A stretch of 64,000 nt of DNA from a virus (taxonomy: Duplodnaviria > Heunggongvirae > Uroviricota > Caudoviricetes), in IMG/VR virus record IMGVR_UViG_3300026737_000001; one strand, 5' to 3'. The notes below the pieces were generated by a model, which saw only the letters and a list, made by a program, of their open reading frames with translations, made no database searches and was not told the DNA's origin. Shown here piece by piece: positions 38,108 to 60,802 of this stretch. The translations under genes were made by a program, and so were the position numbers. How positions within the stretch are numbered: position 1 is the first letter of the stretch; each line of letters opens with the position of its first letter.

Positions 38108-39182
38108 CTAATTAGCTTTCTTAAAGAAATCTCCTTCAATCAATTTAACTTTATCAACCAGCATTGCATTACTTTTATCTTTTTTACCTTCAAGTTTTAA
38201 TTTAAAACCTTTTTGAAATAAGTCATGATTGGAGCGATATGTGTCCGGAAAAACTACAAGTTTAATCTTATTTTTATCTGTTTTAACTTTTGCAAAAGCC
38301 ATTAATTTATTTGACTTTCTGGTTTTAACCTCTTTAGATTCTGTAATTATGCCTTCCACCTCTAAGACCTCTCCGCTTTTAGCAAAATCCCATTCAGAAG
38401 GATAGGTTAAAGATAAACCGATTGTGTCCATTTCGAATTCAATAATTTCTTCTTTTGTGGGTTCTGGTTCGTCAAAAACTCCAGAACCTTCCTCATTTTT
38501 GAAGGCATCAAATAGTGACTGCCTCATCTGTCCAAACTCTTTAATAGTCTTGTAATCTACAAGTAATTGTTTTCTGTTTTTGCCGAATGAATCCATTGCC
38601 CCAGCTTTAATTAAAGATTCAAAAGCTGTCTTATTAACAACTCTTGTATCAACCTTCTGGTACATATCATCTAGGTCTTTAAACGGTCTTTGATTCATTA
38701 TTTCGGTGCTTGCTTTTTTACCTAAACCATCAATCGCATTTAAACCCAGTCTTATCTTCCCGTTAACAGCTGTAAAGCGCCCTTCTGACTCGTTAATGTC
38801 AGGAGGTAGTATATCTATCTTCTTTTTATAGCAGTCCGAGAAATAGTCCGTAATCGAGCTGTCAGAGCCACTCTTTGCTGCTTCAACACTCATGATAGCT
38901 GCATAGAACTCTGCCGGAAAATGGTATTTAAGGTAAGCAGTGGCATAAGATATTAATGCATAGCAAGCAGAATGTGATTTATTAAAGCCATAGCCGGCAA
39001 AATATTCGATTAATCTAAACATTTCATCAGCAAATTCTTCTGTGTGGCCATTTTCTTTAGCTCCTGCTTTAAACTTAACTTTCATTTTTTCTAATACTTT
39101 TATTTTCTTTTTTCCCATTCCACGCCTTAATATATCTGCCTCTCCCAGGCTGAAGTTAGCAATTATCTGTGCAGTTTTCATT
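38108..39182 (-). CDS. dnaE: DNA polymerase III alpha subunit DnaE, exon 3 (C-terminal part)
   Basis: '(V)MKTAQIIANFSLGEADILRRGMGKKK' corresponds to DnaE 'YQEQVMQIAQ...LGEADLLRRAMGKKK'. The codon is completed by splicing (see intron). Confidence 0.85.
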
Positions 39183-40758
39183 CAATTATGTTATCGCAAA
39201 AGCTTTTTATCTTCTGCTTCTATATCTGCTATCTTTACAAATATAGTTCGGCATACATTTTCACCTTATTTAAGGTGTCGAACACTCGTGGAGAGATTAT
39301 ATTTTACATATAAATGTAAGTTCACTCTCTATGCTCTACGGTATTAACAGATTTTTAGGTCTATTAATTACCTCGGTATTATCACATATAATATCCATTC
39401 TTTTTCTTTTTCTTGGTAGCCAAATATTAGCATCTTTGTACATGTATTTATATAGCTTTTTAGAAAATGATATACCACTTTGAAAGTAATATAGATTAGT
39501 ACTTTTATGGATTGTTTTATTGCTTTTTATTACCTTTTGTATAGATTTAAGCATTTTTTTATTTCCACAAAACCCACTTCTCTTACTTTTTTTGATGCAA
39601 GTTATGCCATCTCCATCAAAAAACCCTCTAATAAAGTGTCTATACATATTATCAGGTATTTGAAAGGGAAATGATTCTTTTCCCGTCTTATTAGGTATAA
39701 CACCATATTCAAATAATTTTTCAGTCATATGTCTTGATGTTAAGCTACATCTGCAACAGTAACCTTTTTTTGAATATCCAGAATTTTTACCAACATAAGG
39801 ATTAAGAGAACTTTCTAAGTGGCTTAAAAACCCATAAATAATCTCTTTGTCCTTTAAGGCTACACCTAATTTTATAGAATATTGACCATTATAGATAGAA
39901 GTGTTTCCATCAGCCATTAAAAAACCCAAAAAATAAGCTTTTTCTTCTTTGTTTATTTTATCAAAAAAATCTTCTTTTTTTATGCTATTCTCTAATCCTC
40001 TTTTTATATCAAAACCTTCTTTCTTTAACCATAATGAAATAGTGTTTCTATTAATACCTGTTTCAGTTGCTATTTCACATAAATATAATCCTGATTTATA
40101 AAGATTAACAACTCTTTTTTTATAAACATCTTTATATCCTATTTTATCCCCATGATTAAATTTTGAATTTTTTGTTAGTCCAGCATTTCTTAAATATTTA
40201 TACACTGTACCAACACTTATATTCAATAATTTTGATATTTCTTTTCCAAACTTACCTTCATTATAAAGGTCCATTATTTTTTTGATTTTATATTCACTTA
40301 TTTTTTCAGTTTTTTTAGATTTTTGTGGATTTTGTAAACTTATATCAGATTCATTAATCCATTTATAAATTGTACTTCTGCAAGGCATAATTTCCATTTT
40401 AGAAATATCAGTAACAGAAATGCCATCGCCATACATGTTTAATGCTTTTATTTTGCGTTGACTACTTTTCATCTTTATCACCTTCTACATATTGAAAGAG
40501 TATATACCTAACCATTTCAGAAAAATTAATTCCTTTTTTGTCAGCTATTTTTTGAATGTCTTCTTCCAGCTGTTCCGGTAAATAAATATTTCTTCTTTTC
40601 ATTTTTATCATCTCCAACGTGTGGTATTTGTATCACCTTGCATACATTATTATAACACACATTGAATCATTTTTCAAATTATGGATATTTAGATAGTGGC
40701 TTCACCGATTTTGCTCGATAATAATCTAGCTTATTTCTAAGCTGGACGGCAATTTCTT
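39183..40758 (-). other. group I-like intron in dnaE (intron 2), 1576 nt, carrying a LAGLIDADG HEG
   Basis: Exon 2 ends '...CAGGU' (U before the 5' splice site). The intron ends '...AATTG' (terminal G). Joining gives CAG GTA ATG = Q-V-M, restoring the conserved DnaE YQEQVM. A stop codon follows the exon 2 junction in frame. Confidence 0.7.
39336..40481 (-). CDS. LAGLIDADG homing endonuclease (double-motif) with N-terminal HTH modules, intron-encoded
   Basis: 'YFLGFLMADGNTS' and 'FIRGFFDGDGITC'. Confidence 0.8.
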   Translation of the reverse strand: MIKMKSSQRKIKALNMYGDGISVTDISKMEIMPCRSTIYKWINESDISLQNPQKSKKTEKISEYKIKKIMDLYNEGKFGKEISKLLNISVGTVYKYLRNAGLTKNSKFNHGDKIGYKDVYKKRVVNLYKSGLYLCEIATETGINRNTISLWLKKEGFDIKRGLENSIKKEDFFDKINKEEKAYFLGFLMADGNTSIYNGQYSIKLGVALKDKEIIYGFLSHLESSLNPYVGKNSGYSKKGYCCRCSLTSRHMTEKLFEYGVIPNKTGKESFPFQIPDNMYRHFIRGFFDGDGITCIKKSKRSGFCGNKKMLKSIQKVIKSNKTIHKSTNLYYFQSGISFSKKLYKYMYKDANIWLPRKRKRMDIICDNTEVINRPKNLLIP

Positions 40759-42710
40759 ACCTGTTCCTGGTATACTAGGTAACCGTATGTTTCCTCTAAT
40801 TCCTTTTTTAAACTTTCGTGTGGATATTCTACTTTTTCATTACCGTGCATTCTGTCGAAATATTTTTCCACAATACCAGCTTCAAGTGGTCCCGGGCGAC
40901 CGAGAGCAAGTATAGCAATTATATGCTCGAACTTTGTAGGTTTCATTTTCTTTAACAGCCTTTTAAATAGTTGTGATTCTACCTGAAAAACCCCGTTGGT
41001 ATCAGCCTTCTGATAGATGTTTTTATATACATCTTTATCATCAAGAGGTAAATCCCAAATGTTTTGTACTGTAGGCTTATACTCTAAGCTATCATAATCT
41101 TTTCTGTTCTTGATAAACTTAATAGCCTCACCTATGATAACAACAGTCTTTAACCCTAAGAAATCCATCTTGAGCAAACCTAAATCTTCGCTATCGTGCA
41201 TCTCTGTCTGAGTTACATATGTTATCTCACCAGTCTGGCTGTTTTTGGTTCGTGCTAAAGGTGTGTAATCATCAACAGGCTCTGGAGTAATAACAACTGC
41301 TGAGGCATGTGTACCTAACTGTCTAGGCTTACCTTCTAGCTTTTGAGCTATATCGAATAGTTTTGGATACTGTTCAGCATACATCTTAAGTTCTTTACTT
41401 TCTTCCAGTGCTTCCTTGATTGAAATACCTGGGGTATCGGGAAATGCCTTTGATATCTCTTTATTCATTAGATTGTAATCATATCCTAATACTCGGCCTA
41501 CATCTTTAACAGCTGATTTAGCACCTAGTGTACCAAAGTTACAGATACTTGCTACATTTTCTTCTCCGTATTTGTCGATTACATACTGGATAACTTTTCC
41601 TCTATTTCCAAAATCTATATCAATATCAGGCATAGCAGTTCTTTCAGGATTTAAGAATCTTTCAAACAGCAGTCCATACTTAACAGGGTCTAAGGCTGTG
41701 ATGCCTAAAAGATAGGATAGAAGTGAGCCTGCTGCAGACCCTCGACCAGGACCAACAATGATGTTATTATCTTTAGCCCACTGAACATAATCTTCAACAA
41801 TTAAAAAGTAGGCAGGATACCCCTTCATATTTATAACCTCAAGCTCTGTATCAAGCCGTCTGGCGTATTTATCCATATCAATGTCTTTTTCTACAGCCAA
41901 CTCAAAAAGCTTCTTAAAGGCCCTTTCTTCAAGGTATGACTCAAGTGTATAACCTTCAGGAACTTCGAACTTAGGAAGGAGTAAATTACCTAAATCAAGC
42001 TCGACTGTATCACATTTATCGGCAATTTTTACTGTATTCTCAACTGCACTATCTCTGGCATCTATAAAATCAGACTCTACACTTTTTGCAAAAAGCTGAC
42101 TTTTTATCTCATCTTCACCCTTAAAATAGTATGAATCTCCATGAAATCTAAATCTGTCATTATCTTCAACTTTTGCCCCTGTTTGAATACATAGCATAAC
42201 GTCATGAGCTTCTATACTGTCCTTTTCTAGATAGTGCATATCTGATGTAGCTACAAGCTCTATATCTAATTTTCTAGCTAAATTTGCAAGCTTTGAGTTC
42301 ATTACGTACTGCTCTGATACATCGTTGGCCATAATCTCTATATAGAAATCATCACCAAAAAGTTTTTTATATTTTAGAGCTATTTCTTCTGCTCTTTCAT
42401 TGTTGTTATTCTCTAAGGCTCTTGGTATCTCTCCTGCAAGGCAGGCAGAACTTACTATAAGTCCTTCAGAATGCTCTTTTAAAATTTCAAAATCTATTCT
42501 TGGTTTATAATAAAAACCTTCTGTATTTGACTTACTCACCATCTTAAAAATATTATCCAATCCTTTTTTATTTTTAGCAAGGATTATAAGGTGGTGTCTT
42601 TTACCTTCTTTATCATGCATGTCATTAGCTACATATACTTCAATTCCAAATATATGTTTAATTTCTTCTTCTTTGGCTGCTTTATAAAGCTCTACGAAAT
42701 TATGGATACT
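40759..42710 (-). CDS. dnaE: DNA polymerase III alpha subunit DnaE, exon 2 (PHP remainder plus polymerase core)
   Basis: 'GPGRGSAAGSLLSYLLGIT', 'FLGLKT', ends 'GYLVYQEQV'. Confidence 0.85.
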
Positions 42711-43840
42711 CAATTGTGTTATCCTACAAGTTTTTTACCATGTAGTTCTTGCAGTTCATTTCCTGCAAGTTCAGCATACCTTTTGCCCACCAGCATTACC
42801 TGTGAGGACAGGAGTCTCTTGGAAAAATTATATTCTTTAATACAAATTAAAGTTTCATTTTCTATGCGTTGCCCCTGACTAATATTTTAAAATTAGCCTT
42901 CGGTTCGGATTGGCTTCTCAGCTTTCCCGCTTAATACTCCTGTAATAATTCTAAACATTCCTGTTTAGAACGGCAAATTTATCATGTTTTCTCTTTAAAT
43001 ATATATTAGCATCTTTATATAGGTAGTCTTTAATTTTCAAAACAGCAAGCCTTCCTGACTTTCTTATTTTGTACATATCAGATTTATGAAATTTTGGTTT
43101 TTGCATAAATATATCATTTTTTTCAAACTCATCAGATATTTCATTTAGCATATCTTTATAGCCCATTATATAAAATTCACAATTTAAAGAGTTCTTGTGA
43201 TGGTTATCATTTCTTATTGAATATGATATACATCCATCACCGTCAAAGTAACCTCTTATAAAATGATTCATATATTCTTCTTTTATATTTGGTAATGAGT
43301 TTGTGTTTTTTACACCTAGTTTTATTAAGTCTTGATATATTTTTTTATTGGTAAAAGACAGAGTATATTGTCCAATATTACTATATCTATCCTTTCTTGG
43401 TTTAATGTAATATAATGGACCTGCATAACCAACTTCATTTTTTACATCTAAAAGAAGTTTTTTATCATCTTCTTTTAAACCAATAGAGGCCACATAACTT
43501 CTTCCTGAAATATATACGCTTCCATCTGAATAAAATAATCCTAATATATAGGCTTTCTCTTTAGAATTTATTTCAGAAAAATATTTTTGATTTATTTTAT
43601 ATTGTGGTTGACCTCCTGGATTTCTTGATTTTATATTATACTCTTTGAAAGTCGTTTGTATTTTTGAAGCACTTACATTAAAATATTTTCCTATATCTTT
43701 ATGACTTAAACCATCATTATAAAGATTTTTCATTTCATTAATTTGTTTTGTAGAAAAAATAATTTTTTTAGTAATTTTTATCACCCTCTTTAGCTTAAAG
43801 GTGCTAATATATTTATAATTATAACATGATATTAATGTTT
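42711..43840 (-). other. group I-like intron in dnaE (intron 1), 1130 nt, carrying a LAGLIDADG HEG
   Basis: Exon 1 ends '...GAC CAC GGU' and the intron ends '...CACAATTG'. Joining gives 'TDHG|SIHNFVELYKAAK', collinear without gaps with Firmicute DnaE 'TDHGNMFGAIEFYKAAK'. Confidence 0.65.
42951..43784 (-). CDS. LAGLIDADG homing endonuclease, intron-encoded (paralog of 39336..40481)
   Basis: 'YILGLFYSDGSVY' and 'FIRGYFDGDGCIS'. The N-terminal HTH resembles the other HEG. Confidence 0.8.
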   Translation of the reverse strand: MIKITKKIIFSTKQINEMKNLYNDGLSHKDIGKYFNVSASKIQTTFKEYNIKSRNPGGQPQYKINQKYFSEINSKEKAYILGLFYSDGSVYISGRSYVASIGLKEDDKKLLLDVKNEVGYAGPLYYIKPRKDRYSNIGQYTLSFTNKKIYQDLIKLGVKNTNSLPNIKEEYMNHFIRGYFDGDGCISYSIRNDNHHKNSLNCEFYIMGYKDMLNEISDEFEKNDIFMQKPKFHKSDMYKIRKSGRLAVLKIKDYLYKDANIYLKRKHDKFAVLNRNV

Positions 43841-43966
43841 ACCGTGGTCTGTTATAGCAACAGTTTTTTGACCCATATCTTTTGCTTTCTTCACAATATC
43901 CTTTGGTGAATCAAAGCCGTCCAAAAAAGAGTAGTAACTGTGGTTGTGTAAATTAACATAAGACAA
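43841..43966 (-). CDS. dnaE: DNA polymerase III alpha subunit DnaE, exon 1 (PHP N-terminus)
   Basis: Not in the ORF track. TTG start after AAGGAGG. '(M)SYVNLHNHSYYSFLDGFDSPKDIVKKAKDMGQKTVAITDHG' is the PHP-domain signature. Confidence 0.7.
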
Positions 43967-44131: not shown

Positions 44132-44485
44132 CTACTTGTGCCAAGGCTTAAAGTCTTTAACTTTATTAATTAACTCTTTATTCCATTTACCCCCAAAATT
44201 AATTGCTCTATCATCAATTTGCACTATAGCTGGTACTTTATCTCTAACTACTTTATCTACTTCAATATCATATTTATCTAAATAATCTTCGATAGCTTCA
44301 ATTCCGCCTTCTTGGTGGCACCTGGAAGAATGGACAACTACTTCATAATCTTTCCTTAATTCCTGAATAGCTTCGTTTACACCTTCAACCGGAGAATCTG
44401 GTATATTAGTAACTCCTTGCCAACCAGACTTATAGCTGTGAATAACACCGTCAAAATCTAAAATAATTGTTTTCTTGCCTGACAT
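44132..44485 (-). CDS. HAD-superfamily phosphatase-like protein (paralog of 24617..24973)
   Basis: 'KKTIILDFDGVIH' motif I. Confidence 0.4.
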   Translation of the reverse strand: MSGKKTIILDFDGVIHSYKSGWQGVTNIPDSPVEGVNEAIQELRKDYEVVVHSSRCHQEGGIEAIEDYLDKYDIEVDKVVRDKVPAIVQIDDRAINFGGKWNKELINKVKDFKPWHK

Positions 44486-44800
44486 TTAATTTGCCTCCTC
44501 TACTTTCTCATAAGTTTTATGGAATATATCAGGTTTACAAGGATAAAATTCGCCGTTTACGCCTTTGATAATATAGTCTCCAACATTAGCCCTCATTACC
44601 CCTTCTAAAGTAGGTATGACAATTTCCCCTAATTTTTTGTTGCTGTAATCAATATAAGAATCCTTACAATCTTTCATAAAAGTTTCAGTAATTAAACTAT
44701 TAGCCCCATTCCATTCAACAGCCTCAATTACAACTGGTTTTTTACGATATTTTGCCATTTTATCCCCCTTAAAATTGCTTTGAAAGTGTAAAACTAACAT
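44486..44800 (-). CDS. hypothetical protein
   Basis: ORF. Confidence 0.3.
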   Translation of the reverse strand: MLVLHFQSNFKGDKMAKYRKKPVVIEAVEWNGANSLITETFMKDCKDSYIDYSNKKLGEIVIPTLEGVMRANVGDYIIKGVNGEFYPCKPDIFHKTYEKVEEAN

Positions 44801-44874
44801 TATTTGGAGTCTTACAATCCTGCTTTATCCTTAAATGGCCTAAAGGTAGTTTGCCTTCAACGCCATATACCTTT

Positions 44875-45513
44875 TTAACGCCCTCTACATAGCAATAGTG
44901 TAGCTTTTCCATAACTATAATAAGGAACTCCATCATCTATTAAATCATAATCGTCTCTTTCTGATATGATTGCCCATGCATCTTCGTTTTCTATATGGTA
45001 TCTAACACCAACCTTTTTAGCTTGTAGTTTACCTCTGGATATTTTATTAACTATCCCTTGGTTGGTTACTCCTATCAACATTGCAAGTTCATTTGCAGAT
45101 AAATCTCTGCCTCTGTATAATTTTATTCTTGTCTCTGCAAGCGTTATTAAAAATCCAATCCGGGAGTTTAAAAGACCCCTGTTGGTACCTTTCTGAACAA
45201 AGTATTTAGAAACAATATTTACCTGAGCATCCTCTTTTAATTCGTTTATTATTCCAGTTATTTCAGGAATATAATCATACTGTCCCTTTATAAAGTAAAA
45301 TAGTTTTTTTATTTCTTTAGCAAAAGGAAAAGGAAAATCAATTTTTTTATTCTCTATTGGACAGAAAAGTTCCACTGGTTCTTTGTTCACTTCTATGTCT
45401 TTTGCGTACTTAAGTTCAAGTTGGATTAATTCACGTAAATTGTTTTCTATATCAGATATAATTTTATTATAAAAACTTTTTCCTTTGAAATCTTTAATAC
45501 TGTATTCATTCAT
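44875..45513 (-). CDS. hypothetical protein with C-terminal HTH
   Basis: 'LAMLIGVTNQGIVNKISRGKLQA'. Confidence 0.35.
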   Translation of the reverse strand: MNEYSIKDFKGKSFYNKIISDIENNLRELIQLELKYAKDIEVNKEPVELFCPIENKKIDFPFPFAKEIKKLFYFIKGQYDYIPEITGIINELKEDAQVNIVSKYFVQKGTNRGLLNSRIGFLITLAETRIKLYRGRDLSANELAMLIGVTNQGIVNKISRGKLQAKKVGVRYHIENEDAWAIISERDDYDLIDDGVPYYSYGKATLLLCRGR

Positions 45514-45610
45514 TTTTTTAAACCCCCTTTTTATTTAGTTTTATTATCTAAACTAATCATAACAGCTGCAAATTACTTTGTCAACAACTTTTTTAGGAAT
45601 TACTCTTATT

Positions 45611-46150
45611 TTATATGTGAATTTTTTCTTTTAACATCACTTCTAATTCTCTTTTTGCAATTTCTTTTTCATCTTTTTGCAAATTGTTTTTTAAGCAAAA
45701 TTCAAAGTCTATATTTGAGTTTTTAATAAATAATGCTGATTTATAAATACACTTCCAATCTTTACCTCCTGTTATAACAACGTTCTTGTGGTAGTTTAAA
45801 AAACTGTTCTTTAAAACTAGATATATTTTATCAACTAGGTTCTCATTTGTTATTTTGTATATTTTTGAAACTTTAACCCCATTTGTATATAGTTTTACAA
45901 CTATATTTTTATGATTATTTTGCAAATATTTCAAAAATTGAACGAGGTCAGTTTGAAGCGTTGCCTCTCCGCCTCTTATGGTAATTTCCTCTAAATTTTT
46001 ATAATTTATATCTTCTTTATTAAAATTTTCTTTTTTTATTTTTGGAACTAGATGCAAATCCTTACAATCTGCACACCTTAAGTTACATCCCTGAACATAG
46101 ATTGTTAACTTCTTACCGTCCTCTGAATATTCCTTCTTATAAATATTCAT
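45611..46150 (-). CDS. small radical SAM activase-like protein (NrdG/QueE-like)
   Basis: 'DGKKLTIYVQGCNLRCADC' and 'IRGGEATLQ'. Confidence 0.45.
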   Translation of the reverse strand: MNIYKKEYSEDGKKLTIYVQGCNLRCADCKDLHLVPKIKKENFNKEDINYKNLEEITIRGGEATLQTDLVQFLKYLQNNHKNIVVKLYTNGVKVSKIYKITNENLVDKIYLVLKNSFLNYHKNVVITGGKDWKCIYKSALFIKNSNIDFEFCLKNNLQKDEKEIAKRELEVMLKEKIHI

Positions 46151-46199
46151 TCCAAACCTCCTAAAATAAAAACCCCCAAAATTAATTGAGGGTTTGAAT

Positions 46200-47387
46200 T
46201 TATTTTTTATATTTTTCTTTTATTAAAAATGAGACCTGTATCCCGATTCCTATTAATGCTGCAAGTCCTACACCGCTAAATTTATAAACTGTTATTCCAC
46301 TTAGTCCAAAAACTATCATCGTAGAAGCTATAAATGTATTCTTTGGACTTGTGAAATCGACTTTATTTGAAACAAAAGTTTTAAAGCCTAGAGTTGCTAT
46401 ATTACCAAAAAGAATAATCATAACTCCTCCAACAACAGCTGTTGGTATTGACTGCAGAAAAGCTGCTAATACACCTACAAAGCTAAATATAATTGCAAAT
46501 ATACCTGCATTTCTTGTAACTTTTGGGTCTCTTATCTTTAATAGACTAACTGCTGATGTTCCTTCTGAGTAAGTTGTATTTGGTACAGAGCCTACAAAAG
46601 AAAGCATTGTGCCTATTCCATCAATTAACATCGTCCTGTGCATCCCTGGTGACTTATAATACTTATTACCAGTTGCTTCACTTACTGCAAATACATCACC
46701 AAAATGCTCTATTGTTGGAGCTAAGGCAAATGGCAGTATGTAAATTGCTGCGCTTAAATTAAATCTTGGGAGTGTAAATTCAGGCATGCTTACTAGTGGT
46801 AGAGAAACAAATGTTACCTCTCCTAGAAGCAAAGCTGATATATATCCTGTTAAAATAGCTATCAAAACTGAATATAATCTTGTTACTCCTTCTGTAAACA
46901 TCATAAAATATCCTGCTGTAGATAATGTTATAATAGCTAAAAGCCAATTACCTGAAGCCATATCTATACCGGTATCTATCAGGGTCAACCCTATCAGCAT
47001 AATCATTGTTCCTGAGATTACTGGAGGGAAAAGTTTTTCTGAGATGAAGTCACTGCCTGTTTTTTTAATTACAAATGAAAATAAAACTTTCATAATTCCC
47101 GCAACACCTAATGCAAAGAAAACAGATGGCATATCCCATCTATCCTGTATATAAATTATTGGTGCTATATAGGCAAATGATGAGCCTAGAAAAATTATTG
47201 GTGCTCCATATTCACCTCTACCAAAATAATGCATGATAAGAGTCGATATACCTGCTGTAAATAAAACAATAGATGTTGAGATACCCGTCAAAAGTGGTAC
47301 CAAAATCGTAGCGCCAAAGCAGACTACAAGCATCTGTAAACCTAAAAGCCATGTGTTATTTCCAATATTGAAATTCTCTGATTTCAT
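46200..47387 (-). CDS. NCS2-family nucleobase (uracil/xanthine) permease
   Basis: N-terminus 'LQMLVVCFGATILVPLLTG...LFTAGISTLIMH...IFLGSSFAYIAPII' parallels UraA/PyrP. Twelve or more TM segments. Confidence 0.6.
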   Translation of the reverse strand: MKSENFNIGNNTWLLGLQMLVVCFGATILVPLLTGISTSIVLFTAGISTLIMHYFGRGEYGAPIIFLGSSFAYIAPIIYIQDRWDMPSVFFALGVAGIMKVLFSFVIKKTGSDFISEKLFPPVISGTMIMLIGLTLIDTGIDMASGNWLLAIITLSTAGYFMMFTEGVTRLYSVLIAILTGYISALLLGEVTFVSLPLVSMPEFTLPRFNLSAAIYILPFALAPTIEHFGDVFAVSEATGNKYYKSPGMHRTMLIDGIGTMLSFVGSVPNTTYSEGTSAVSLLKIRDPKVTRNAGIFAIIFSFVGVLAAFLQSIPTAVVGGVMIILFGNIATLGFKTFVSNKVDFTSPKNTFIASTMIVFGLSGITVYKFSGVGLAALIGIGIQVSFLIKEKYKK

Positions 47388-47408
47388 TAATATTGTGCCT
47401 CCTGTTTT

Positions 47409-47702
47409 TTATAACCAATTATATTTTTTTACGTAATAAAAATCTTCGCTTATACCACAATAAGGGCAAACCTTTACTTTCTTTTCTGGATGAGTTTTAA
47501 ATTTTCTATTTTTGCCACATATAGGACACCATGTATAAATTATTCTTCTGTCTGGTTTTTTGAAATCCTTGTGTTTGTAAAGTGTTACTTTTTTGTACTT
47601 CTTTTTTTGTTTTTTGTAATATTTTTCTGCCTCTTTTTTGCTTGTAAACTTTTCTTTTTCATATTTAAATTTTTTCTTAGCTGTAATTACAAACCACTTC
47701 AA
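47409..47702 (-). CDS. Lys-rich zinc-ribbon protein
   Basis: 'CPICGKN...CPYCG' CxxC...CxxC. Confidence 0.35.
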   Translation of the reverse strand: MKWFVITAKKKFKYEKEKFTSKKEAEKYYKKQKKKYKKVTLYKHKDFKKPDRRIIYTWCPICGKNRKFKTHPEKKVKVCPYCGISEDFYYVKKYNWL

Positions 47703-47875
47703 TTAATACCTCCCCCTTTAAGAGATATTTACAGTACTTTATCAAATGTTTTTCTGTCTTTCCACTCTTCTTTTTTTCCTTTATTCCAATGAGAGATAGG
47801 TGTTAAAAACCCAACAACTCTGGAATAAACTTCACATCTAGTTCTTTTGCTTTCCATAATTACCACCTCCTTTCT

Positions 47876-48592
47876 TTAATTTCTTATTCTTACATTATCA
47901 ATATACTCTTCAGCAATGCTTTTAAATTCCTTTAACTTTTTTTCACTAAAACCATTTTTGCCACAGAGTTCTTTATTATAAGTAGAATCACCTTTGAAAT
48001 TCTGGATAAAATACCAGTCAGAATTTATTATCTGAGAGGCGATTTCTCTAATGTCCTCACTTTCATGCATTCCTGGTACTACTGTGGTTCTGATTTCATA
48101 CTGAACATCATATTTTTCTTTGGCCTGATATATATTATATAAAGAGCGTTTAATCTTATCTAAATTAATCTTGCCTCCTAATGAGCCGTATCTCTCATAT
48201 GGCATTTTAAAATCCATTGCTATATAATCTATAAGACCAGAAGACGCAAGGTATAAAAGTTTTTTAGGATAGGAACCGTTAGTATCAATCTTAACTTTTA
48301 ATCCCATAGTTTTAACTTTTTCAAGGAATAATTTTAAATCATCAATATCCTGCATTAAGGGCTCTCCACCAGTAATAGTAACTCCATCTATCTTTCCTTT
48401 TCTTTCGTTTAGGAACATTAAAATTTCATCTTCGTTAATTAAATTTTCTTTGTCTTTTATATCTTCACTTATTAATGATGGGTTGTGGCAGTAAGGACAT
48501 CGTAAATTACAACCCTGAGTAAATAAGATTGTAGAAATATGTTCTGGATAATCCATCAAAGAAGTCTTTTGTATTCCTGCAAATTTAATCAT
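47876..48592 (-). CDS. nrdG: glycyl-radical enzyme activating protein (anaerobic RNR activase NrdG-like)
   Basis: 'ILFTQGCNLRCPYCHNP' and 'TITGGEPLMQ'. Confidence 0.55.
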   Translation of the reverse strand: MIKFAGIQKTSLMDYPEHISTILFTQGCNLRCPYCHNPSLISEDIKDKENLINEDEILMFLNERKGKIDGVTITGGEPLMQDIDDLKLFLEKVKTMGLKVKIDTNGSYPKKLLYLASSGLIDYIAMDFKMPYERYGSLGGKINLDKIKRSLYNIYQAKEKYDVQYEIRTTVVPGMHESEDIREIASQIINSDWYFIQNFKGDSTYNKELCGKNGFSEKKLKEFKSIAEEYIDNVRIRN

Positions 48593-49187
48593 TTAAACCC
48601 TCACCAAACCTTTTTACAAAAGCTTTTTCATCTGCTGGCATTTGCTCAAAGCCAATCTCCACTAATCCATGTAGCCTTATAATTTCATAAAAAATAGCAA
48701 TAGACTTTTTAAGCTCTCCATCATTATTTTTAATAGTGTAGTCCGCTATTTCTTTATTTTTTCTTTCACGAGTCTTAATCATGTGCCAAACTCTCTTGAA
48801 TGCAGCTTTAAACCCATCTCTTTTATAAAGTCTTTTTGCAAGCTGATAGAATGGTACATCAATGTAGATAACTCTAACCTCATCACCATACATGCCTTTC
48901 ATTTGTCTGACTCCGTTTCTGTCCATAATTACAAATACAGAATCGTTATCCTCTAACTTTCTTTCAACTTCTCTTGTTGAGAGGCAGTAATAGTTGCCGG
49001 CGTATTCTGTAAACTCAGCTTTATTCATTTTGTCTATGTCTTTTTTGGTAACAAAATAGTAAGTCTCTCCGTGAACTTCTCCTTTTCTCATATCTCTTGA
49101 GGTGTGGGATACAAGCTCAGGTAATCCTGAGCCTTTACCGATTGCAGTTTTACCAGAGCCTGAAGGTCCCATTAAGATATATATCAT
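48585..49187 (-). CDS. guanylate kinase-like nucleoside monophosphate kinase
   Basis: 'ILMGPSGSGKT...SHTSRDMRKGEVHGETYYFV...EYAGNYYCLS' is the Gmk signature. Confidence 0.7.
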   Translation of the reverse strand: MIYILMGPSGSGKTAIGKGSGLPELVSHTSRDMRKGEVHGETYYFVTKKDIDKMNKAEFTEYAGNYYCLSTREVERKLEDNDSVFVIMDRNGVRQMKGMYGDEVRVIYIDVPFYQLAKRLYKRDGFKAAFKRVWHMIKTRERKNKEIADYTIKNNDGELKKSIAIFYEIIRLHGLVEIGFEQMPADEKAFVKRFGEGLND

Positions 49188-49198
49188 ATTTAACCCCC

Positions 49199-49618
49199 TT
49201 AAATTTCTAATTCATTTTCTAAAATAGTTCTTGTCTTATCGGTTAATTTAATTTTTTCTTTATTATTTAAGTAATACTCTTTGGCTGTGTCACCAAATTT
49301 CAAACTCATAGCCTCCCAGTCAACTACCATTTGTTGAATATATTTTAGTGGTATCTCCATAGGTTTTCCCTGTGGGCCTATCCAGTGATTCCAATGGTGA
49401 GGATTATTATAATAGTGGTGTCTCCATGCCATCTCAAATCGGTGCTTGTATTTTTCTTTATCTTTATAAAAATATCCTGCATAAGCCCAAAATTCGCTAC
49501 CAGTTAATTTAGATAAATCATGGGTAAAAGCATGAACGAACATACCCTTACCCATTGCAATTTTAAAAACATTCCATTTGTGTTCTAAAACATAAAGTAA
49601 ATATTTTAAAATATACAT
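49199..49618 (-). CDS. hypothetical protein
   Basis: ORF. Confidence 0.3.
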   Translation of the reverse strand: MYILKYLLYVLEHKWNVFKIAMGKGMFVHAFTHDLSKLTGSEFWAYAGYFYKDKEKYKHRFEMAWRHHYYNNPHHWNHWIGPQGKPMEIPLKYIQQMVVDWEAMSLKFGDTAKEYYLNNKEKIKLTDKTRTILENELEI

Positions 49619-49621
49619 TTA

Positions 49622-52600
49622 CTAACCCTCATATCCGTTTTCAGCATCACACTTAGGACAGAATTCGTGTTCTCCTGGCAGATACCCATGTATTGGACAA
49701 ATACTAAAAGTAGGAGTAATAGAGTAATAAGGAAGTTCATAATTTTCAGCAACTCTTTTAACAAACTTTTTGGTAGCCTCTATTCCAGGCATTCTCTCTC
49801 CTAGAAATAAATGTAAAACTGTTCCTCCTGTATAATTTTTCTGAAGTTCATCCTGCCAATCTAAAGCTTCAAAAGGGTCGTCTGTAGCCCCTACAGGTAG
49901 CTGAGTTGAATTAGTGTAATACGGGTCAGCATCTTCTGTATAAACCCTTTTATCATTAGCAAAAACAGCTTCTTCTTTCCCAAACTTATCAAGGTCTGAT
50001 TTGGCCAATCTATAGCTTGTTCCTTCAGCTGGAGTAGCTTCAAGGTTAAAAAGGTCACTTGTTTCTTCCTGGTACTCCACCATTCTTTCTTTCATTTTGT
50101 ACATAACCCATTTAGTAAATTTAATAGCTTCATGTTCTGTCATATCTTTTCCTAAGAAATTCATAACAGATTCATTCATTCCATTTAATCCGATTGTATT
50201 AAAGTGATTTTTCCAGTACTCTCCAAAACGTTCCTTAATACTTCTTAGATAAAACTTAGAATAAGGGTAAAGACCTGCATCTGTTAACTCTTCTAAAATT
50301 CTTCTTTTAATTTCTAAACTTTCTTTTGCAATATCCATTAATTCATAGACTCTCTCTAAATAATCATCAGTATTTTCTGCTAAAAGTCCAATTCTGGGCA
50401 TATTAAGTGTTACTACACCGATAGAGCCTGTCATAGGCGATGAGCCGAATAAACCTCCTCCTCGCTTTCTTAATTGCCGATTATCAAGGCGCAGCCTGCA
50501 GTTATGAGTCAAGATTCCAGTTGTGCCAACCGTAAACATTGGTTCTCCATCTTTGACTTCAAAACAATAAGCCGTTTGTTTTTCTTTTAGTTTTTCAACT
50601 TTATCTATTTTCATCCACAGTTTTGAGTCTTTTTTAAACCAAACGTCGCCATAACTATTTCTATTTAATTTGTAAAATAAAACAGCATAATTTGGATTAT
50701 CTCCTAGTCTTCCATCACTTTTTTTTCTGTCATCAGTATAAACATTGGTTGTTGTTCCCAGAGTAGCAGCTAACATATTTAAGCTTTCTACCATTTTTTC
50801 TGATGATGTATAAATTCTATTTTTGTTTCCTCCATCAGTTTCATAATAGCCATCAAATAATCCTGTTCTAAAGTGTTTGCTCATTTCAAAAACATTTGCT
50901 TTGAAGTATTTATTTAATGCATTATCCCCATCAACAAAACTTTCAATCATTGATTTTACTGCTGGATTATATGTTGAAAGTTTAACTACATTATTTTTTT
51001 CTTCTTTTTCGGTAAATTTAGCCCCAAAAAGTTTAGTCAGTATTTCTTTTAAATTTTCAAGCACTGTTAGCTTGGTATTATTATTTAAAGAAAAAACAGT
51101 TCCTGTATTTTTATCACAGCTTCCGTCTCCTGCAAAAGCTCCTATTAAATAGCCAAGGTCATAAGTTCCTCCTTCGCCTTTAAAACTTGTTAAGCTATAA
51201 GGTAGATAATAACCTTCTTTTAAGTCTTTTCCTGACATTTCTTCAATATCTTTATTTTTATTTTTGATAACAAAATTTAAATGTTCTTCAGTCATCTTTA
51301 TCTCATGCCCGTTAACCAATCTTACATTTATCATATTTTGATTTTCAAACTTATTGAATCGACCTTCTATAAATTTACCATCAGAATAGACTAATATATC
51401 ATCATTATCTTTAGTGTCATAATATGTGTGGTTAATTTGGGAGTATCTTACATTGTCATCACCTGTTTTAACTAATACCTTTTCTTTTCCGTCAAGTGGA
51501 CACATTGAGCGAGCGTCTTCAGCTTTCATATCGGAATTGACGAAGTTCGCAAAATATGGAATTCCGTACTTGGCTGTCATTTCCCAAACAGGATTTAATA
51601 TTTCGTTATCCCAATCAAAATCTGGAGTAATGTTATAAGTAGGAATAGGGAAAGAAAATACTCTTCCTTTTGAATCTCCCGCCAGCATAACCTCAGCAAA
51701 AGCCTTGTTAATCATGTCCATTTCCTTCTGGAAATTTTTAAGCGGCATGTCATAAAGCATTTCGCCACCAATAATAGCTGGGTCCTCTGCCATATTTGAT
51801 GGACAAACTAAATCCATAGTTAAATTTGTAAAAGGACTTTGAAATCCAACCCGTGTCGGTACATTTAAATTAAAAATAAATTCCTGCATAGCCTGATAAA
51901 CTTCATCATAATCAAGTCCATCATAAGATACAAACGGTGCAAGATAAGTATCGAAACTTGAAAAAGCTTGAGCTCCAGAACTCTCTCCCTGTAAAGTATA
52001 TAAAAAATTAACCATTTGTCCTAAAGCAGTTCTGAAGTGTTTTGGTGGTGCCGACTCTATCTTGGTTGACACTCCTGAAAAACCTTCCAATAATAAATCC
52101 TGAAGGTCCCATCCACAACAGTAATTACTTAAATTAGCAAGGTCGTGAATGTGCAAATCTCCACTTACATGCTTTTCTTTAATGTGTTTAGGGTAAATTT
52201 CATTTAACCAATAATGGCCTGTCACCTCGCTTGCTATATGATTATTTAAACCCTGAAGACTATAACCCATATTGGAGTTCTCATTAACTTTCCAATTGCT
52301 TAAATCAAGGTAATTATTAACTGTATCATTTATTCCATTGTATAGTTTTTGAGCATCTCTATACTTTTCATGCTGCTTTCTATATAATATATAGTTTTTT
52401 GCTATTTCATAATGTCTGTTTTCCATTAATTCATACTCAACAATATCCTGTAAAGTCTCAACATTAACAGAGTTTAATCCAGAACTAATCATTCCACTTA
52501 TATTATCTTCTATTTCTTCAACAATATTATTTGCAACAAAATTCCAAAAATCTTCACCTTTTTTTTCTGCTGTTGCCTTCGCTGCTTTATAAACTGCATC

Positions 52601-52663
52601 TTTAATTTTTTTATTTTTATATTCTACTTTTCTTCCGTCTCTTTTAATTACATAAAACGACAT
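49622..52663 (-). CDS. nrdD: anaerobic ribonucleoside-triphosphate reductase NrdD (class III), intein-containing
   Basis: N-terminal ATP-cone, C-terminal zinc ribbon and glycyl region '...CPIHGYL...CPKCD'. 1013 aa, of which 334 aa are intein. Confidence 0.8.
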   Translation of the reverse strand: MSFYVIKRDGRKVEYKNKKIKDAVYKAAKATAEKKGEDFWNFVANNIVEEIEDNISGMISSGLNSVNVETLQDIVEYELMENRHYEIAKNYILYRKQHEKYRDAQKLYNGINDTVNNYLDLSNWKVNENSNMGYSLQGLNNHIASEVTGHYWLNEIYPKHIKEKHVSGDLHIHDLANLSNYCCGWDLQDLLLEGFSGVSTKIESAPPKHFRTALGQMVNFLYTLQGESSGAQAFSSFDTYLAPFVSYDGLDYDEVYQAMQEFIFNLNVPTRVGFQSPFTNLTMDLVCPSNMAEDPAIIGGEMLYDMPLKNFQKEMDMINKAFAEVMLAGDSKGRVFSFPIPTYNITPDFDWDNEILNPVWEMTAKYGIPYFANFVNSDMKAEDARSMCPLDGKEKVLVKTGDDNVRYSQINHTYYDTKDNDDILVYSDGKFIEGRFNKFENQNMINVRLVNGHEIKMTEEHLNFVIKNKNKDIEEMSGKDLKEGYYLPYSLTSFKGEGGTYDLGYLIGAFAGDGSCDKNTGTVFSLNNNTKLTVLENLKEILTKLFGAKFTEKEEKNNVVKLSTYNPAVKSMIESFVDGDNALNKYFKANVFEMSKHFRTGLFDGYYETDGGNKNRIYTSSEKMVESLNMLAATLGTTTNVYTDDRKKSDGRLGDNPNYAVLFYKLNRNSYGDVWFKKDSKLWMKIDKVEKLKEKQTAYCFEVKDGEPMFTVGTTGILTHNCRLRLDNRQLRKRGGGLFGSSPMTGSIGVVTLNMPRIGLLAENTDDYLERVYELMDIAKESLEIKRRILEELTDAGLYPYSKFYLRSIKERFGEYWKNHFNTIGLNGMNESVMNFLGKDMTEHEAIKFTKWVMYKMKERMVEYQEETSDLFNLEATPAEGTSYRLAKSDLDKFGKEEAVFANDKRVYTEDADPYYTNSTQLPVGATDDPFEALDWQDELQKNYTGGTVLHLFLGERMPGIEATKKFVKRVAENYELPYYSITPTFSICPIHGYLPGEHEFCPKCDAENGYEG
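50501..51502 (-). mobile_element. intein with LAGLIDADG homing-endonuclease domain inside NrdD (aa 388-721)
   Basis: Starts with Cys in 'ARSM|CPLDGKEKVLV' and ends 'GILTHN|C'. LAGLIDADG motifs 'YLIGAFAGDGS' and 'FRTGLFDGYYETDGG'. Extein junction 'ARSM-CRLRLD'. Confidence 0.7.
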
Positions 52664-60502: not shown

Positions 60503-60802
60503 TTACTCTATTGTTGCTATAATGTCTCTTTCATTTATCAACCATAAATCTTCTCCGTCAACTTCAATTTTATGACCTGCATACTGCTTATAAAGTATTT
60601 CGTCACCTTTATTAACACTTGTTTCAATTAGTTTATTTGAATTAGGAGTTTTTCTACCTGGTCCAGCCTCAATTACCTCTCCTTTTAAAACTTCATATTT
60701 TTCAGTTTGCTTTTCAGGAATAATAAGTCCCGATTTTGTTTTTGTCTTACCTTCTTTTTCTTCTCTTTTAACTAAAATAAAGTCATGCATTGGTTTAATC
60801 AT
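60503..60802 (-). CDS. groES: co-chaperonin GroES (Cpn10)
   Basis: 'IKPMHDFILVKREEKE...GLIIPE...GEVIEAGPG...GDEILY'. Confidence 0.7.
   Translation of the reverse strand: MIKPMHDFILVKREEKEGKTKTKSGLIIPEKQTEKYEVLKGEVIEAGPGRKTPNSNKLIETSVNKGDEILYKQYAGHKIEVDGEDLWLINERDIIATIE

What the first reader, a model, noticed from the sequence alone, without database searches (positions are those of the whole stretch)
44132..49187. Nucleotide-supply island: NCS2 uracil permease, two small rSAM activases, guanylate kinase
A 12-TM nucleobase:cation symporter homolog (UraA/PyrP-like) in a phage is rare, because transporters are seldom phage-borne. Together with pyrG, dcd, tmk, gmk and nrdD it implies that the phage rewires pyrimidine uptake and flow. 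Two distinct small rSAM proteins (45611..46150 with 'GCNLRCADC', 47876..48592 with 'GCNLRCPYCHNP') are present, but only one glycyl-radical client (NrdD) is visible.
Basis: partly seen in the sequence, partly recalled or inferred. Interest (0 to 1): 0.6.

Follow-up and report, generated by a model that had tools for sequence, protein, structure and literature searches.

The report
Split anaerobic reductase module plus permease

Summary
They are an NCS2 permease, a canonical NrdG2 activase, a short divergent radical-SAM (rSAM) protein and a guanylate-kinase-like gene.

The 1013-aa NrdD ORF stops just after its zinc-ribbon CPKC and has no glycyl-radical domain (GRD). The GRD is a separate 42-aa gene (47729-47857, minus strand) with its own Shine-Dalgarno sequence, 19 nt after the nrdG2 stop. 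Core and peptide cover Pfam NRDD positions 1-530 and 531-562.

The same split recurs in five other lineages of this phage family. It also occurs in about 65 of 80 cellular loci (Synergistales, Thermoplasmatota, DPANN archaea, CPR bacteria). More than 55 viral contigs carry orphan GRD mini-genes.

The permease is PyrP-type, 69% identical to Halanaerobiales PyrP, and was inserted in only some lineages. The small rSAM belongs to a tiny phage-only offshoot of NrdG2. It lies close downstream of the GRD gene, but it is absent from one phage lineage and from all cellular split systems.

The best reading is a split class III RNR with an accessory activase-like enzyme and a captured uracil importer. 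No held paper describes this, and a 2026 review calls non-PFL spare parts an open question.

The parts
49622..52663 (-). NrdD catalytic core, 1013 aa: ATP-cone, barrel and zinc ribbon, interrupted by a LAGLIDADG intein (about residues 388/389-721). It ends '...CPKCDAENGYEG*' and has no glycyl-radical domain.
   Evidence: PRK08270 at 972 bits and PF13597 plus Intein_splicing. The C-extein covers PF13597 positions 264-530 of 562. It aligns to T. maritima NrdD 4COI only up to residue 609, the CPxC motif.
49199..49618 (-). DUF5662 protein, 139 aa, function unknown. It is lineage-specific: absent from L030, L031 and L193.
   Evidence: PF18907 at 104 bits. Locus comparison.
48585..49187 (-). Guanylate-kinase-like (d)NMP kinase, 200 aa. 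It sits between the NrdD core and NrdG2 in the window, L030/L031 and L193, the lineages where that stretch is on the contig.
   Evidence: PF00625 at 66.9 bits; TIGR03263 at 81 bits (below cut-off); phrog_1815 at 126 bits. It is 63% identical to the L030 orthologue.
47876..48592 (-). Canonical NrdG2-type class III RNR activase, 238 aa, with the DYP-x and CX3CX2C-H-N motifs.
   Evidence: TIGR02495 at 190.7 bits, above the 131.15 cut-off. It clusters with Halanaerobiales (Orenia) NrdG2 in an NJ tree.
47729..47857 (-). Stand-alone glycyl-radical-domain mini-subunit of NrdD, 42 aa: MESKRTRCEVYSRVVGFLTPISHWNKGKKEEWKDRKTFDKVL. The ATG lies 19 nt after the nrdG2 stop, behind an AAAGGAGGTG Shine-Dalgarno sequence.
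   Evidence: PF13597 positions 531-562 of 562 at 36.9 bits, above the gathering cut-off of 26.2. It aligns to 4COI residues 611-645, including RIVGY. It is 80-85% identical across lineages where NrdG2 is only 43-45% identical. The Shine-Dalgarno sequence is conserved in four lineages. Sibling L002 has it called as a 42-aa NRDD gene.
47409..47702 (-). Lys-rich Zn-ribbon protein, 97 aa (CPxC...CPYC), function unknown. A homologue at this position was shown only in L030 (48% identity). Other small Cys-rich ORFs occupy the position in L032 and L193, and none does in L031 or L034.
   Evidence: Weak zinc-ribbon Pfam hits. It is 48% identical to the 112-aa protein of L030. L193 carries a 76-aa Cys-rich ORF at the same position.
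46200..47387 (-). PyrP/UraA-type NCS2 uracil permease, 395 aa with a 14-TM fold. It is a lineage-specific insertion of Halanaerobiales-like origin.
   Evidence: PF00860 at 222 bits. UraA 3QE7 at 172 bits with F73, E241 and E290 conserved. It is 69% identical to Halanaerobiales proteins, whose gene lies next to pyrR. It is absent from L030, L031, L032 and L034.
45611..46150 (-). Short divergent rSAM protein, 179 aa, of a small phage-only offshoot of NrdG2. The CX3CX2C, GGE and TNG motifs are intact, and W-x-C-I-Y-K-S is a subfamily hallmark. The H-N that follows the third Cys in canonical activases is missing.
   Evidence: TIGR02495 at 70.7 bits, below the cut-off. Only about six clusters in 5.8 billion belong to the subfamily; the score then drops to ordinary NrdG2 proteins. 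AF2 mean pLDDT is 92 and the best PDB fold match is PFL-AE 3CB8/3C8F. It forms a monophyletic long branch.
44875..45513 (-). 212-aa protein with a C-terminal excisionase/MerR-like HTH. It lies immediately downstream of the small rSAM in the window, L032, L033 and L034, and downstream of the permease in L193.
   Evidence: TIGR01764 weak hit. Orthologues are 39-59% identical.
44486..44800 (-). 104-aa protein of phage family phrog_419, function unknown.
   Evidence: phrog_419 at 137 bits.
44132..44485 (-). 117-aa HAD-like small phosphatase candidate (DxDGV motif). A role in nucleotide metabolism is not established.
   Evidence: PF18143 at 25 bits, below the gathering cut-off; phrog_23773 at 73 bits.

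Best explanation
The interval is the downstream half of a conserved jumbo-phage class III (anaerobic) ribonucleotide reductase module in which NrdD is naturally split.

- A large catalytic core carries the ATP-cone, barrel and zinc ribbon, here also interrupted by an intein.
- A separately translated 42-residue mini-subunit carries the radical glycine (RVVGF).

Inferred mechanism:

1. NrdG2 uses SAM and a [4Fe-4S] cluster to abstract the glycine C-alpha hydrogen of the mini-subunit.
2. The mini-subunit docks into the core barrel in trans, as the fused domain does in canonical NrdD. GrcA does the same for oxygen-cleaved PFL.
3. Oxygen damage then destroys only a 42-aa peptide, which is cheap to replace.

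The other genes:

- The Gmk-like kinase is a fixed passenger of the module.
- The 179-aa rSAM is an accessory, phage-family-specific derivative of NrdG2. It is most likely a second enzyme that abstracts a hydrogen from the free GRD peptide. This step is the weakest inference, at about 0.35 on its own.
- The NCS2 gene is a PyrP-type uracil importer captured from a Halanaerobiales-like host and inserted between the Zn-ribbon gene and the small rSAM in one sub-lineage. It would feed uracil into a UMP to UTP to CTP (phage PyrG) to dCTP (NrdD) to dUTP (phage Dcd) to dTMP to dTDP (phage Tmk) flow.

Shown here: gene content, the split, complementarity of the two pieces, conservation, synteny and the origin of the permease. 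Inferred: activity in trans, which activase acts on the peptide, and uracil as the substrate.
For: The split itself:
- The core ends 8 residues after CPKC and aligns to 4COI up to residue 609. The 42-aa ORF aligns to 4COI 611-645.
- Pfam NRDD profile positions are 264-530 for the C-extein and 531-562 for the peptide.
- The peptide has its own AAGGAGGTG Shine-Dalgarno sequence and start codon in four lineages.
- The peptide is 80-85% identical across lineages, against 73% for the core, 45% for NrdG2 and 37-43% for the small rSAM.
- Rfam finds no intron.

The same architecture elsewhere:
- It recurs in L030, L031, L032, L034 and L193.
- It recurs in about 65 of 80 cellular loci. In 40 of the 55 loci where the GRD ORF directly follows the core it is in a different frame, and ATGA stop-start overlaps occur. 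These are therefore real separate genes.
- Synergistales share the phage's core-NrdG2-GRD order.

NrdG2:
- It passes the equivalog cut-off.

Small rSAM:
- The cluster and SAM motifs are invariant.
- The fold is PFL-AE-like.
- In every lineage where both genes are on the contig it lies 5 bp to 1.6 kb downstream of the GRD gene.

Permease.

A phage thioredoxin gene (19850-20167) could supply the reductant.
Against: - There is no biochemical evidence that a GRD supplied in trans supports NrdD catalysis.
- The small rSAM is dispensable for the split system. It is absent from L193, which has the core, NrdG2, the GRD and the permease. It is also absent from all cellular split loci.
- It lacks the H-N after the third cluster Cys, and the N-terminal D-x-P-G loop is only loosely retained. 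In PFL-AE these elements (Asp16, Asn38) anchor the glycine loop.
- Near-identical siblings L001 and L003 carry a class II RTPR, lack both NrdG2 and the GRD gene, and still keep the small rSAM. That swap is recent, however: the flanks are 95-97% identical.
- The permease has H245D and G289S relative to UraA and scores below NCBI's uracil-permease cut-off.
- The permease copy in L193 is frameshifted.
Confidence: 0.6

Rival explanations
1. The region is a nucleotide-supply island assembled around the permease. The two rSAM proteins are activases for two different glycyl-radical enzymes, and the second client lies outside the window.
For: The phage genome is large: the exact GRD peptide occurs on contigs up to 212,659 bp. 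A second GRE elsewhere therefore cannot be excluded. The best family match of the small rSAM is still a GRE activase.
Against: Relatives keep the NrdG2-GRD-small rSAM order without any permease. Only one GRD-like motif occurs in the six frames of the 64 kb window. The small rSAM always lies near the NrdD-type GRD gene and never near another GRE in the loci recovered.
Confidence: 0.12
2. The small rSAM is not a protein activase. It would be a minimal rSAM acting on a small molecule or nucleotide, for example a QueE-like or base-modifying reaction, or on another neighbouring protein such as the Zn-ribbon protein or the 212-aa HTH protein.
For: It lacks the C-H-N motif and scores below the NrdG2 cut-off. 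It gives weak hits to QueE models at 30 bits and to phrog_2076 'QueE-like'. BlsE and QueE are the next structural neighbours. It persists in the NrdJ-type siblings and is absent from cellular split NrdD systems.
Against: NrdG2 is by far the best family match, at 70.7 bits against 30 or less. All 794 exhaustive HMMER hits that were examined look like NrdG2 proteins. PFL-AE is the top fold match. No other queuosine or deazaguanine genes were found among the ORFs scanned. The Zn-ribbon gene is missing in L031 and L034, and the HTH gene is missing in L030.
Confidence: 0.2
3. The small rSAM is a redundant paralogue drifting towards loss and has no specific role.
For: It is lost in L193. It sits on a long branch and is only 37-55% identical between lineages. 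It is truncated at both ends relative to NrdG2.
Against: The ORF is intact in five diverged lineages. All cluster and SAM-binding residues are invariant, and subfamily-specific motifs such as W-x-C-I-Y-K-S are conserved. Its divergence is similar to that of the clearly functional NrdG2, which is 43-45% identical. The AF2 model is confident, with pLDDT 92.
Confidence: 0.08
4. The NrdD split is not functional. It would be a pseudogene, an assembly error, or a fragment rejoined by an intron, recoding or trans-splicing.
For: The window is rich in introns, inteins and homing endonucleases: an NrdD intein, and DnaE interrupted twice by LAGLIDADG ORFs. Split nrdD genes caused by introns are known in phages (PMC3653736).
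Against: The same break point occurs in six phage lineages and about 65 cellular genomes from independent assemblies. The GRD ORF has its own Shine-Dalgarno sequence and start codon, variable frame relations to the core, and one to three complete genes between the pieces. Rfam finds no intron. The core tail after CPxC is conserved (D-x-E-x-G-Y), which indicates a real C-terminus.
Confidence: 0.04

Closest known systems
Canonical class III RNR NrdD/NrdG (phage T4; T. maritima NrdD, PDB 4COI/4U3E)
   Same: It has the same catalytic core (PRK08270 at 972 bits), ATP-cone, zinc ribbon and glycyl-radical motif, and an NrdG2-type activase encoded nearby.
   Different: The glycyl-radical domain is a separate 42-aa gene rather than the C-terminus of NrdD. 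One to three genes lie between core and GRD. A second, divergent rSAM protein accompanies the module.
GrcA/YfiD of E. coli and Y06I of phage T4 (autonomous glycyl-radical 'spare part' proteins for PFL)
   Same: It is a small free-standing protein consisting essentially of a glycyl-radical domain. It is presumably activated by the cognate activase and inserted in trans into a large GRE body. PMC13450708 describes the PFL case.
   Different: It is homologous to the NrdD GRD, not the PFL GRD. In this phage it is the only GRD, so it is an obligate subunit rather than a spare. The orphan copies in other phages (L035-L110) are the closer functional analogue. The 2026 review states that spare parts are known only for formate lyases.
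Genes-in-pieces RNRs: Aeromonas phage Aeh1 nrdA-a/nrdA-b, and split NrdJa/NrdJb of Pseudomonas aeruginosa and Thermus phage phiYS40
   Same: An RNR catalytic subunit is encoded as two polypeptides that must assemble (PMC3653736, PMC9669993).
   Different: Those are class I and class II enzymes. Here class III is split exactly at the boundary between the radical cofactor domain and the core. The split is ancient and widespread rather than caused by a local homing-endonuclease insertion.
UraA (E. coli) and PyrP (Bacillota) NCS2 uracil:H+ symporters
   Same: It has the 14-TM fold and conserved F73, E241 and E290. Its closest cellular homologues lie in pyrR-pyrP synteny.
   Different: It is phage-borne. 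It has H245D and G289S. It scores below NCBI's equivalog cut-off (238 bits against 477). Its substrate has not been tested.
PFL-AE and NrdG2 glycyl-radical enzyme activases
   Same: The small rSAM shares CX3CX2C, GGE, TNG, the partial TIM-barrel fold and a size class close to the minimal activases.
   Different: It lacks the H-N after the cluster motif, has a shortened N-terminal loop and no C-terminal extension. It forms its own clade of about six sequence clusters, all from this phage family.

Membership tests
NCS2/NAT nucleobase:cation symporter (PF00860); UraA/PyrP uracil permease subgroup | Match to the family profile over the full transporter core | tested here: met
   PF00860 at 222 bits (gathering cut-off 27), covering profile positions 3-386 of 389. 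UraA 3QE7 is aligned over residues 19-407. TIGR00801 gives 250 bits, below NCBI's 291.8 cut-off.
NCS2/NAT nucleobase:cation symporter (PF00860); UraA/PyrP uracil permease subgroup | Uracil-binding residues of UraA (F73, E241, H245, G289, E290) | tested here: inconclusive
   F73, E241 and E290 are conserved. H245 is Asp and G289 is Ser. The uracil permease equivalog NF007995 gives 238 bits against a cut-off of 477.
NCS2/NAT nucleobase:cation symporter (PF00860); UraA/PyrP uracil permease subgroup | Orthology to pyr-operon PyrP by synteny of the closest cellular homologues | tested here: met
   P0007 (69% identical; Halanaerobiales MAG) lies in the order lspA-rluD-pyrR-permease.
NCS2/NAT nucleobase:cation symporter (PF00860); UraA/PyrP uracil permease subgroup | Uracil transport activity | not testable with these tools
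   This needs uptake or complementation assays.
Class III RNR catalytic subunit NrdD | Catalytic barrel, ATP-cone and zinc ribbon | tested here: met
   PRK08270 at 972 bits (cut-off 548), plus PF13597 and PF03477.
Class III RNR catalytic subunit NrdD | C-terminal glycyl-radical domain (R-V-x-G-Y/F) on the same polypeptide | tested here: not met
   The ORF ends at PF13597 position 530 of 562 and at 4COI residue 609. The motif is found only in the separate 42-aa ORF.
NrdG2 activase (TIGR02495): 238-aa protein, 47876-48592 | Equivalog score, CX3CX2C followed by H-N, and the N-terminal D-Y-P loop | tested here: met
   190.7 bits against a cut-off of 131.15. The motifs are visible in alignment A1.
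NrdG2 / GRE activase: 179-aa protein, 45611-46150 | Equivalog score | tested here: not met
   70.7 bits against a cut-off of 131.15. NrdG gives 22 bits and NrdG3 gives 27 bits.
NrdG2 / GRE activase: 179-aa protein, 45611-46150 | Radical-SAM core: CX3CX2C, GGE, the TNG ribose motif and a partial TIM barrel | tested here: met
   These are invariant columns in A1, A3 and A5. The AF2 model has pLDDT 92.2, and PFL-AE is the top Foldseek hit with TM-score 0.62-0.72.
NrdG2 / GRE activase: 179-aa protein, 45611-46150 | Glycine-loop anchors: Asp of the N-terminal D-G-x-G loop, and Asn/His directly after the third Cys (PFL-AE Asp16, Asn38; PMC9326890) | tested here: not met
   The residues after the third Cys are K-D, N-R, N-S, E-P, K-V or S-N across the subfamily. 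The N-terminal turn is D-G, N-G, S-G or D-K and is shorter by about 2-3 residues.
NrdG2 / GRE activase: 179-aa protein, 45611-46150 | Glycyl-radical formation on a GRD substrate | not testable with these tools
   Only genomic linkage to the GRD gene is available.
[quoted passage not shown] | Small free-standing protein consisting of a GRD with the radical glycine | tested here: met
   The protein is 42 aa with its own Shine-Dalgarno sequence and start codon. It matches PF13597 positions 531-562.
[quoted passage not shown] | Homology to the PFL GRD, and coexistence with a full-length GRE that it can rescue | tested here: not met
   The homology is to NrdD, not PFL. The phage core has no GRD of its own. 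It therefore works like GrcA but is not a member of that family.
Guanylate kinase | Pfam domain, P-loop and GMP-binding S/T-x-x-R...Y-x-F motif; equivalog score | tested here: inconclusive
   PF00625 at 66.9 bits is met. GPSGSGKT and SHTSRDMRKGE..YYF are present. TIGR03263 gives 81 bits against a cut-off of 160, which is not met.

The most novel reading that the evidence does not exclude
Free-standing NrdD glycyl-radical mini-proteins would be a general, so far unrecognised 'radical cartridge' system.

- In a large clade of archaeal, CPR and Synergistota class III RNRs, and in this jumbo-phage family, the GRD is an exchangeable subunit.
- Many smaller phages carry orphan copies that re-arm the host's oxygen-damaged NrdD.
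- In this phage family the 179-aa rSAM is a dedicated enzyme that loads the radical onto the free peptide, independently of the core-bound NrdG2 route.

This would be the first spare-part system for a glycyl-radical enzyme other than PFL.
Probability: 0.25. Interest if true: 0.85.

Novelty: new variant of a known kind. Interest (0 to 1): 0.68.

Why it matters
Glycyl-radical enzymes are destroyed by oxygen through backbone cleavage at the radical glycine. Only pyruvate formate-lyase is known to have a replaceable 'spare part', GrcA/YfiD. A June 2026 review (PMC13450708) states that it is yet to be determined whether spare-part proteins exist for other glycyl-radical enzymes.

This locus shows a class III ribonucleotide reductase whose radical domain is naturally a separate 42-residue gene. 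Following that gene outward shows the arrangement to be common in cellular genomes and, as orphan genes, in phages.

That provides a directly testable system of core, peptide and one or two activases. It can address how activases recognise the glycine loop, whether a radical-bearing peptide can be exchanged between enzyme bodies, and how anaerobe phages secure dNTP supply under transient oxygen.

It also affects annotation. The mini-genes are called 'hypothetical protein' or are missed altogether, and the truncated cores are labelled as complete NrdD.

Separately, the host-derived PyrP uracil importer is a rare example of a phage-borne nutrient transporter. It is wired next to RNR genes, here and in an unrelated phage contig (L194).

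Tried and rejected
1. A megablast of the interval against 50,697 phage records found only a 107-bp hit to Fusobacterium phage Funu2, so there are no close relatives there.
2. tblastn of the small rSAM against phages gave two weak hits. A viral-contig scan with the subfamily alignment returned only ordinary NrdG2 proteins.
3. The word-index protein search with the small rSAM alone found only the protein itself. The exhaustive HMMER search and a profile search were needed.
4. An Rfam gathering scan of the whole window gave 0 hits. There is no support for a group I or group II intron joining the NrdD pieces or the DnaE pieces.
5. pN/pS between near-identical siblings rests on too few substitutions for the small rSAM (2 synonymous, 2 non-synonymous). 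It is informative only for the permease (8 synonymous, 0 non-synonymous).
6. The QueE / 7-deazaguanine idea is rejected as the best reading. QueE models score 30 bits or less against 70.7 for NrdG2, and no Que, FolE or DpdA genes were found among the ORFs scanned.
7. The 'small rSAM is required because NrdD is split' idea is rejected. Cellular split loci have a single NrdG2, and L193 lacks the small rSAM.
8. Recoding (selenocysteine or read-through) at the core/GRD junction is rejected. Only 15 of 55 adjacent pairs are in the same frame, which is about the chance expectation.
9. PHROGs on ten plus-strand ORFs gave only one hit with a structural annotation, for the 2100-aa protein, so the virion genes remain poorly annotated.
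10. A fusion or complex AF2 model (rSAM plus peptide, or core plus peptide) was not attempted. The tool folds single chains and accepts only window or database sequences.

Full report
**Observation**

All genes in 44132-52663 lie on the minus strand.

- Profile searches confirm an NCS2 permease at 46200-47387 (PF00860, 222 bits).
- They confirm a canonical NrdG2 activase at 47876-48592 (TIGR02495, 190.7 bits, above the 131.15 cut-off).
- A short rSAM protein at 45611-46150 reaches only 70.7 bits on the same model.
- A guanylate-kinase-like protein lies at 48585-49187, and an intein-containing NrdD at 49622-52663.
- PyrG, Dcd, Tmk, DnaB, RuvC, a sigma factor, ERF, RecJ, a split DnaE, TnpB, thioredoxin and Cpn10 are present elsewhere in the window.
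- The 2100-aa plus-strand protein hits a virion structural family.

The listed genes are therefore real. The '12-TM' label is wrong, because the permease aligns with the 14-TM UraA over residues 19-407.

- The NrdD ORF ends '...CPKCDAENGYEG*', immediately after the zinc ribbon.
- Against T. maritima NrdD (4COI) it aligns only to residue 609.
- A 42-aa ORF at 47729-47857 (MESKRTRCEVYSRVVGFLTPISHWNKGKKEEWKDRKTFDKVL) aligns to residues 611-645, which include the radical-glycine motif.
- On the Pfam NRDD profile the C-extein covers positions 264-530 and the peptide covers 531-562 of 562.
- The peptide gene starts 19 nt after the nrdG2 stop, behind AAAGGAGGTG.
- It is the only glycyl-radical-like motif in the six frames of the window.
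- Rfam finds no intron.

NrdD is therefore split into a catalytic core and a free-standing glycyl-radical-domain (GRD) mini-subunit. DUF5662, Gmk and NrdG2 are encoded between the two pieces.

**Relatives**

- Exact-sequence and pattern searches recovered sibling contigs (L001-L006) and five diverged lineages of the same phage family: L030/L031, L032, L033, L034 and L193.
- These are syntenic from DnaB through Tmk, RuvC, sigma, NrdD and on to DnaE.
- Every contig long enough shows a GRD-less core (L030 ends 'CPICDKENGYNPKEEEG*'), then Gmk, NrdG2 and a 44-48-aa GRD gene with its own Shine-Dalgarno sequence.
- Identity to the window is 73% for the core, 63% for Gmk, 43-45% for NrdG2, 80-85% for the GRD and 37-55% for the small rSAM.
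- The exact 42-aa peptide occurs on 24 contigs, the longest 212,659 bp, so this is a jumbo phage.

**The split is not phage-specific**

A genome-contig scan with the peptide alignment returned 80 loci.

- About 65 have a core of roughly 680-700 aa ending C-P-x-C-D-x-E-x-G-Y, a separate 41-100-aa GRD gene (M...KRT[RK]CEVYSRVVG[YF]...) and a single NrdG2.
- The order is core-GRD-NrdG2 in 51 loci, which in the record titles are Thermoplasmatota, DPANN archaea and CPR bacteria. It is core-NrdG2-GRD, as in the phage, in the six Synergistales loci L113-L118 (and in L164).
- Frame relations are near random (15 in the same frame, 40 in another), and ATGA overlaps occur. These are real gene pairs, not recoding.
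- Ten loci have the two parts fused.

A viral-contig scan gave 76 loci.

- At least 57 carry the GRD in an ORF of fewer than 120 codons.
- Nearly all of those have no NrdD core or NrdG2 within 6 kb either side.
- One 17.7-kb contig is covered completely by L042 and L059 and carries two GRD copies.
- In L035 the 50-aa GRD gene overlaps the stop codon of the upstream gene. It lies between ThyX- and ParB-like genes (assigned by eye from the translations) and the terminase.

Annotation and literature:

- NCBIfam has no model for these proteins.
- NCBI names them 'hypothetical protein'.
- No paper in the held library describes a split class III RNR or an NrdD-type autonomous GRD.
- RNR family surveys mention only split class II enzymes.
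- The June 2026 GRE review says spare-part proteins are known only for formate lyases. It also says it is undetermined whether others exist.

**The small rSAM**

- In 5.8 billion clusters the subfamily comprises only about six clusters, all from this phage family. After them the score drops to ordinary ~230-aa NrdG2 proteins.
- It keeps CX3CX2C, GGE and TNG, and has its own W-x-C-I-Y-K-S motif.
- AF2 gives pLDDT 92, and PFL-AE is the best PDB fold match.
- It lacks the H-N after the third Cys and has a shortened N-terminal loop. In PFL-AE these elements (Asn38, Asp16) anchor the glycine loop.
- In an NJ tree it is a monophyletic long branch outside all NrdG2 sequences. The phage NrdG2 proteins cluster with NrdG2 from Orenia, a member of the Halanaerobiales.
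- It lies 5 bp (L034) to 1.6 kb (the window) downstream of the GRD gene.
- It is missing in L193 and in all cellular split loci.
- It persists in siblings L001 and L003. Those carry a class II RTPR (C-terminus aligned to 1L1L 599-739) in place of the core, NrdG2 and GRD.

It is therefore accessory. An extra GRD-directed hydrogen-abstracting enzyme is the most economical reading, but this is unproven.

**The permease**

- It is 69% identical to Halanaerobiales proteins. The gene for one of these lies in the order lspA-rluD-pyrR-permease.
- The UraA ligands F73, E241 and E290 are conserved, while H245 is Asp and G289 is Ser.
- It is present in the window, L033 (85% identical) and L193 (frameshifted). 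It is absent from L030, L031, L032 and L034.
- It is thus an insertion between the Zn-ribbon gene and the small rSAM.
- An unrelated phage contig (L194) carries a 62%-identical permease between a glutaredoxin gene and a class I/II RNR gene.

**Conclusion**

The organising principle, however, is a split anaerobic RNR with a trans-encoded radical domain.

Confidence is high for the architecture, moderate for activity in trans, and low to moderate for the role of the small rSAM.

Noticed in passing
L035-L110 (IMG/VR contigs), e.g. L035:5992-6144; L040 and L054 on one 35.9-kb contig: More than 55 viral contigs carry a free-standing NrdD-type glycyl-radical mini-gene of 40-120 aa. Nearly all have no NrdD core or activase within 6 kb, and some contigs carry two copies. 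These are candidate phage-borne spare parts for host NrdD.
   Followed up: partly
L113-L192 (GTDB genome contigs): About 65 of 80 cellular loci encode NrdD as two genes, a core and a 41-100-aa GRD. They come from Synergistales, Thermoplasmatota, DPANN archaea, Patescibacteria and Caldisericum. NCBI calls the small gene 'hypothetical protein'.
   Followed up: partly
L001:3-488 and L003:3-389, compared with window 47720-52663: Sibling phages 95-97% identical in the flanks carry a class II (B12-dependent) RTPR ending '...CESGACPIR'. It replaces the split class III core, NrdG2 and GRD, which amounts to a recent swap of RNR class.
   Followed up: partly
window 43832-43966, 42951-43784, 40737-42713, 39336-40481, 38108-39181 (all minus strand): DnaE (Pol III alpha) is in at least three pieces. 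A 44-aa first exon ends '...AITDHGKH'. A LAGLIDADG ORF follows, then the main body, then an HTH+LAGLIDADG ORF, then the C-terminal piece. Rfam detects no intron.
   Followed up: partly
window 50501-51502 (minus strand; NrdD residues 388-721): A LAGLIDADG intein is inserted at the active-site Cys of the finger loop ('SMC|PLDG...THN|CRLRL'). L030 reads 'SMCCRLRL' at this point. It is therefore unclear whether the intein begins at Cys388 or Pro389, and whether one or two Cys remain after splicing.
   Followed up: no
window 19850-20167 and 20149-20568 (minus strand): A phage thioredoxin (PF00085, 83 bits) is a possible reductant for a thioredoxin-dependent NrdD. An adjacent 139-aa protein has an RF-1 domain and resembles ArfB.
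   Followed up: no
window 26964-28085 (minus strand): A TnpB / IS605 OrfB-type protein (OrfB_IS605 plus the Cas12f1-like TNB domain) lies next to pyrG.
   Followed up: no
L194:7767-10265: An unrelated phage-like contig (DnaB, primase) carries an NCS2 permease 62% identical to the window's. It lies between a glutaredoxin gene and a class I/II RNR large-subunit gene, so the permease-RNR pairing recurs.
   Followed up: no
L193:9536-12003: A family member with a two-intein NrdD core, Gmk, NrdG2, GRD and a Zn-ribbon gene has a frameshifted permease and no small rSAM at all.
   Followed up: partly
window 60503-60802 (minus strand): A phage-encoded Cpn10/GroES co-chaperonin (PF00166, 88.6 bits).
   Followed up: no
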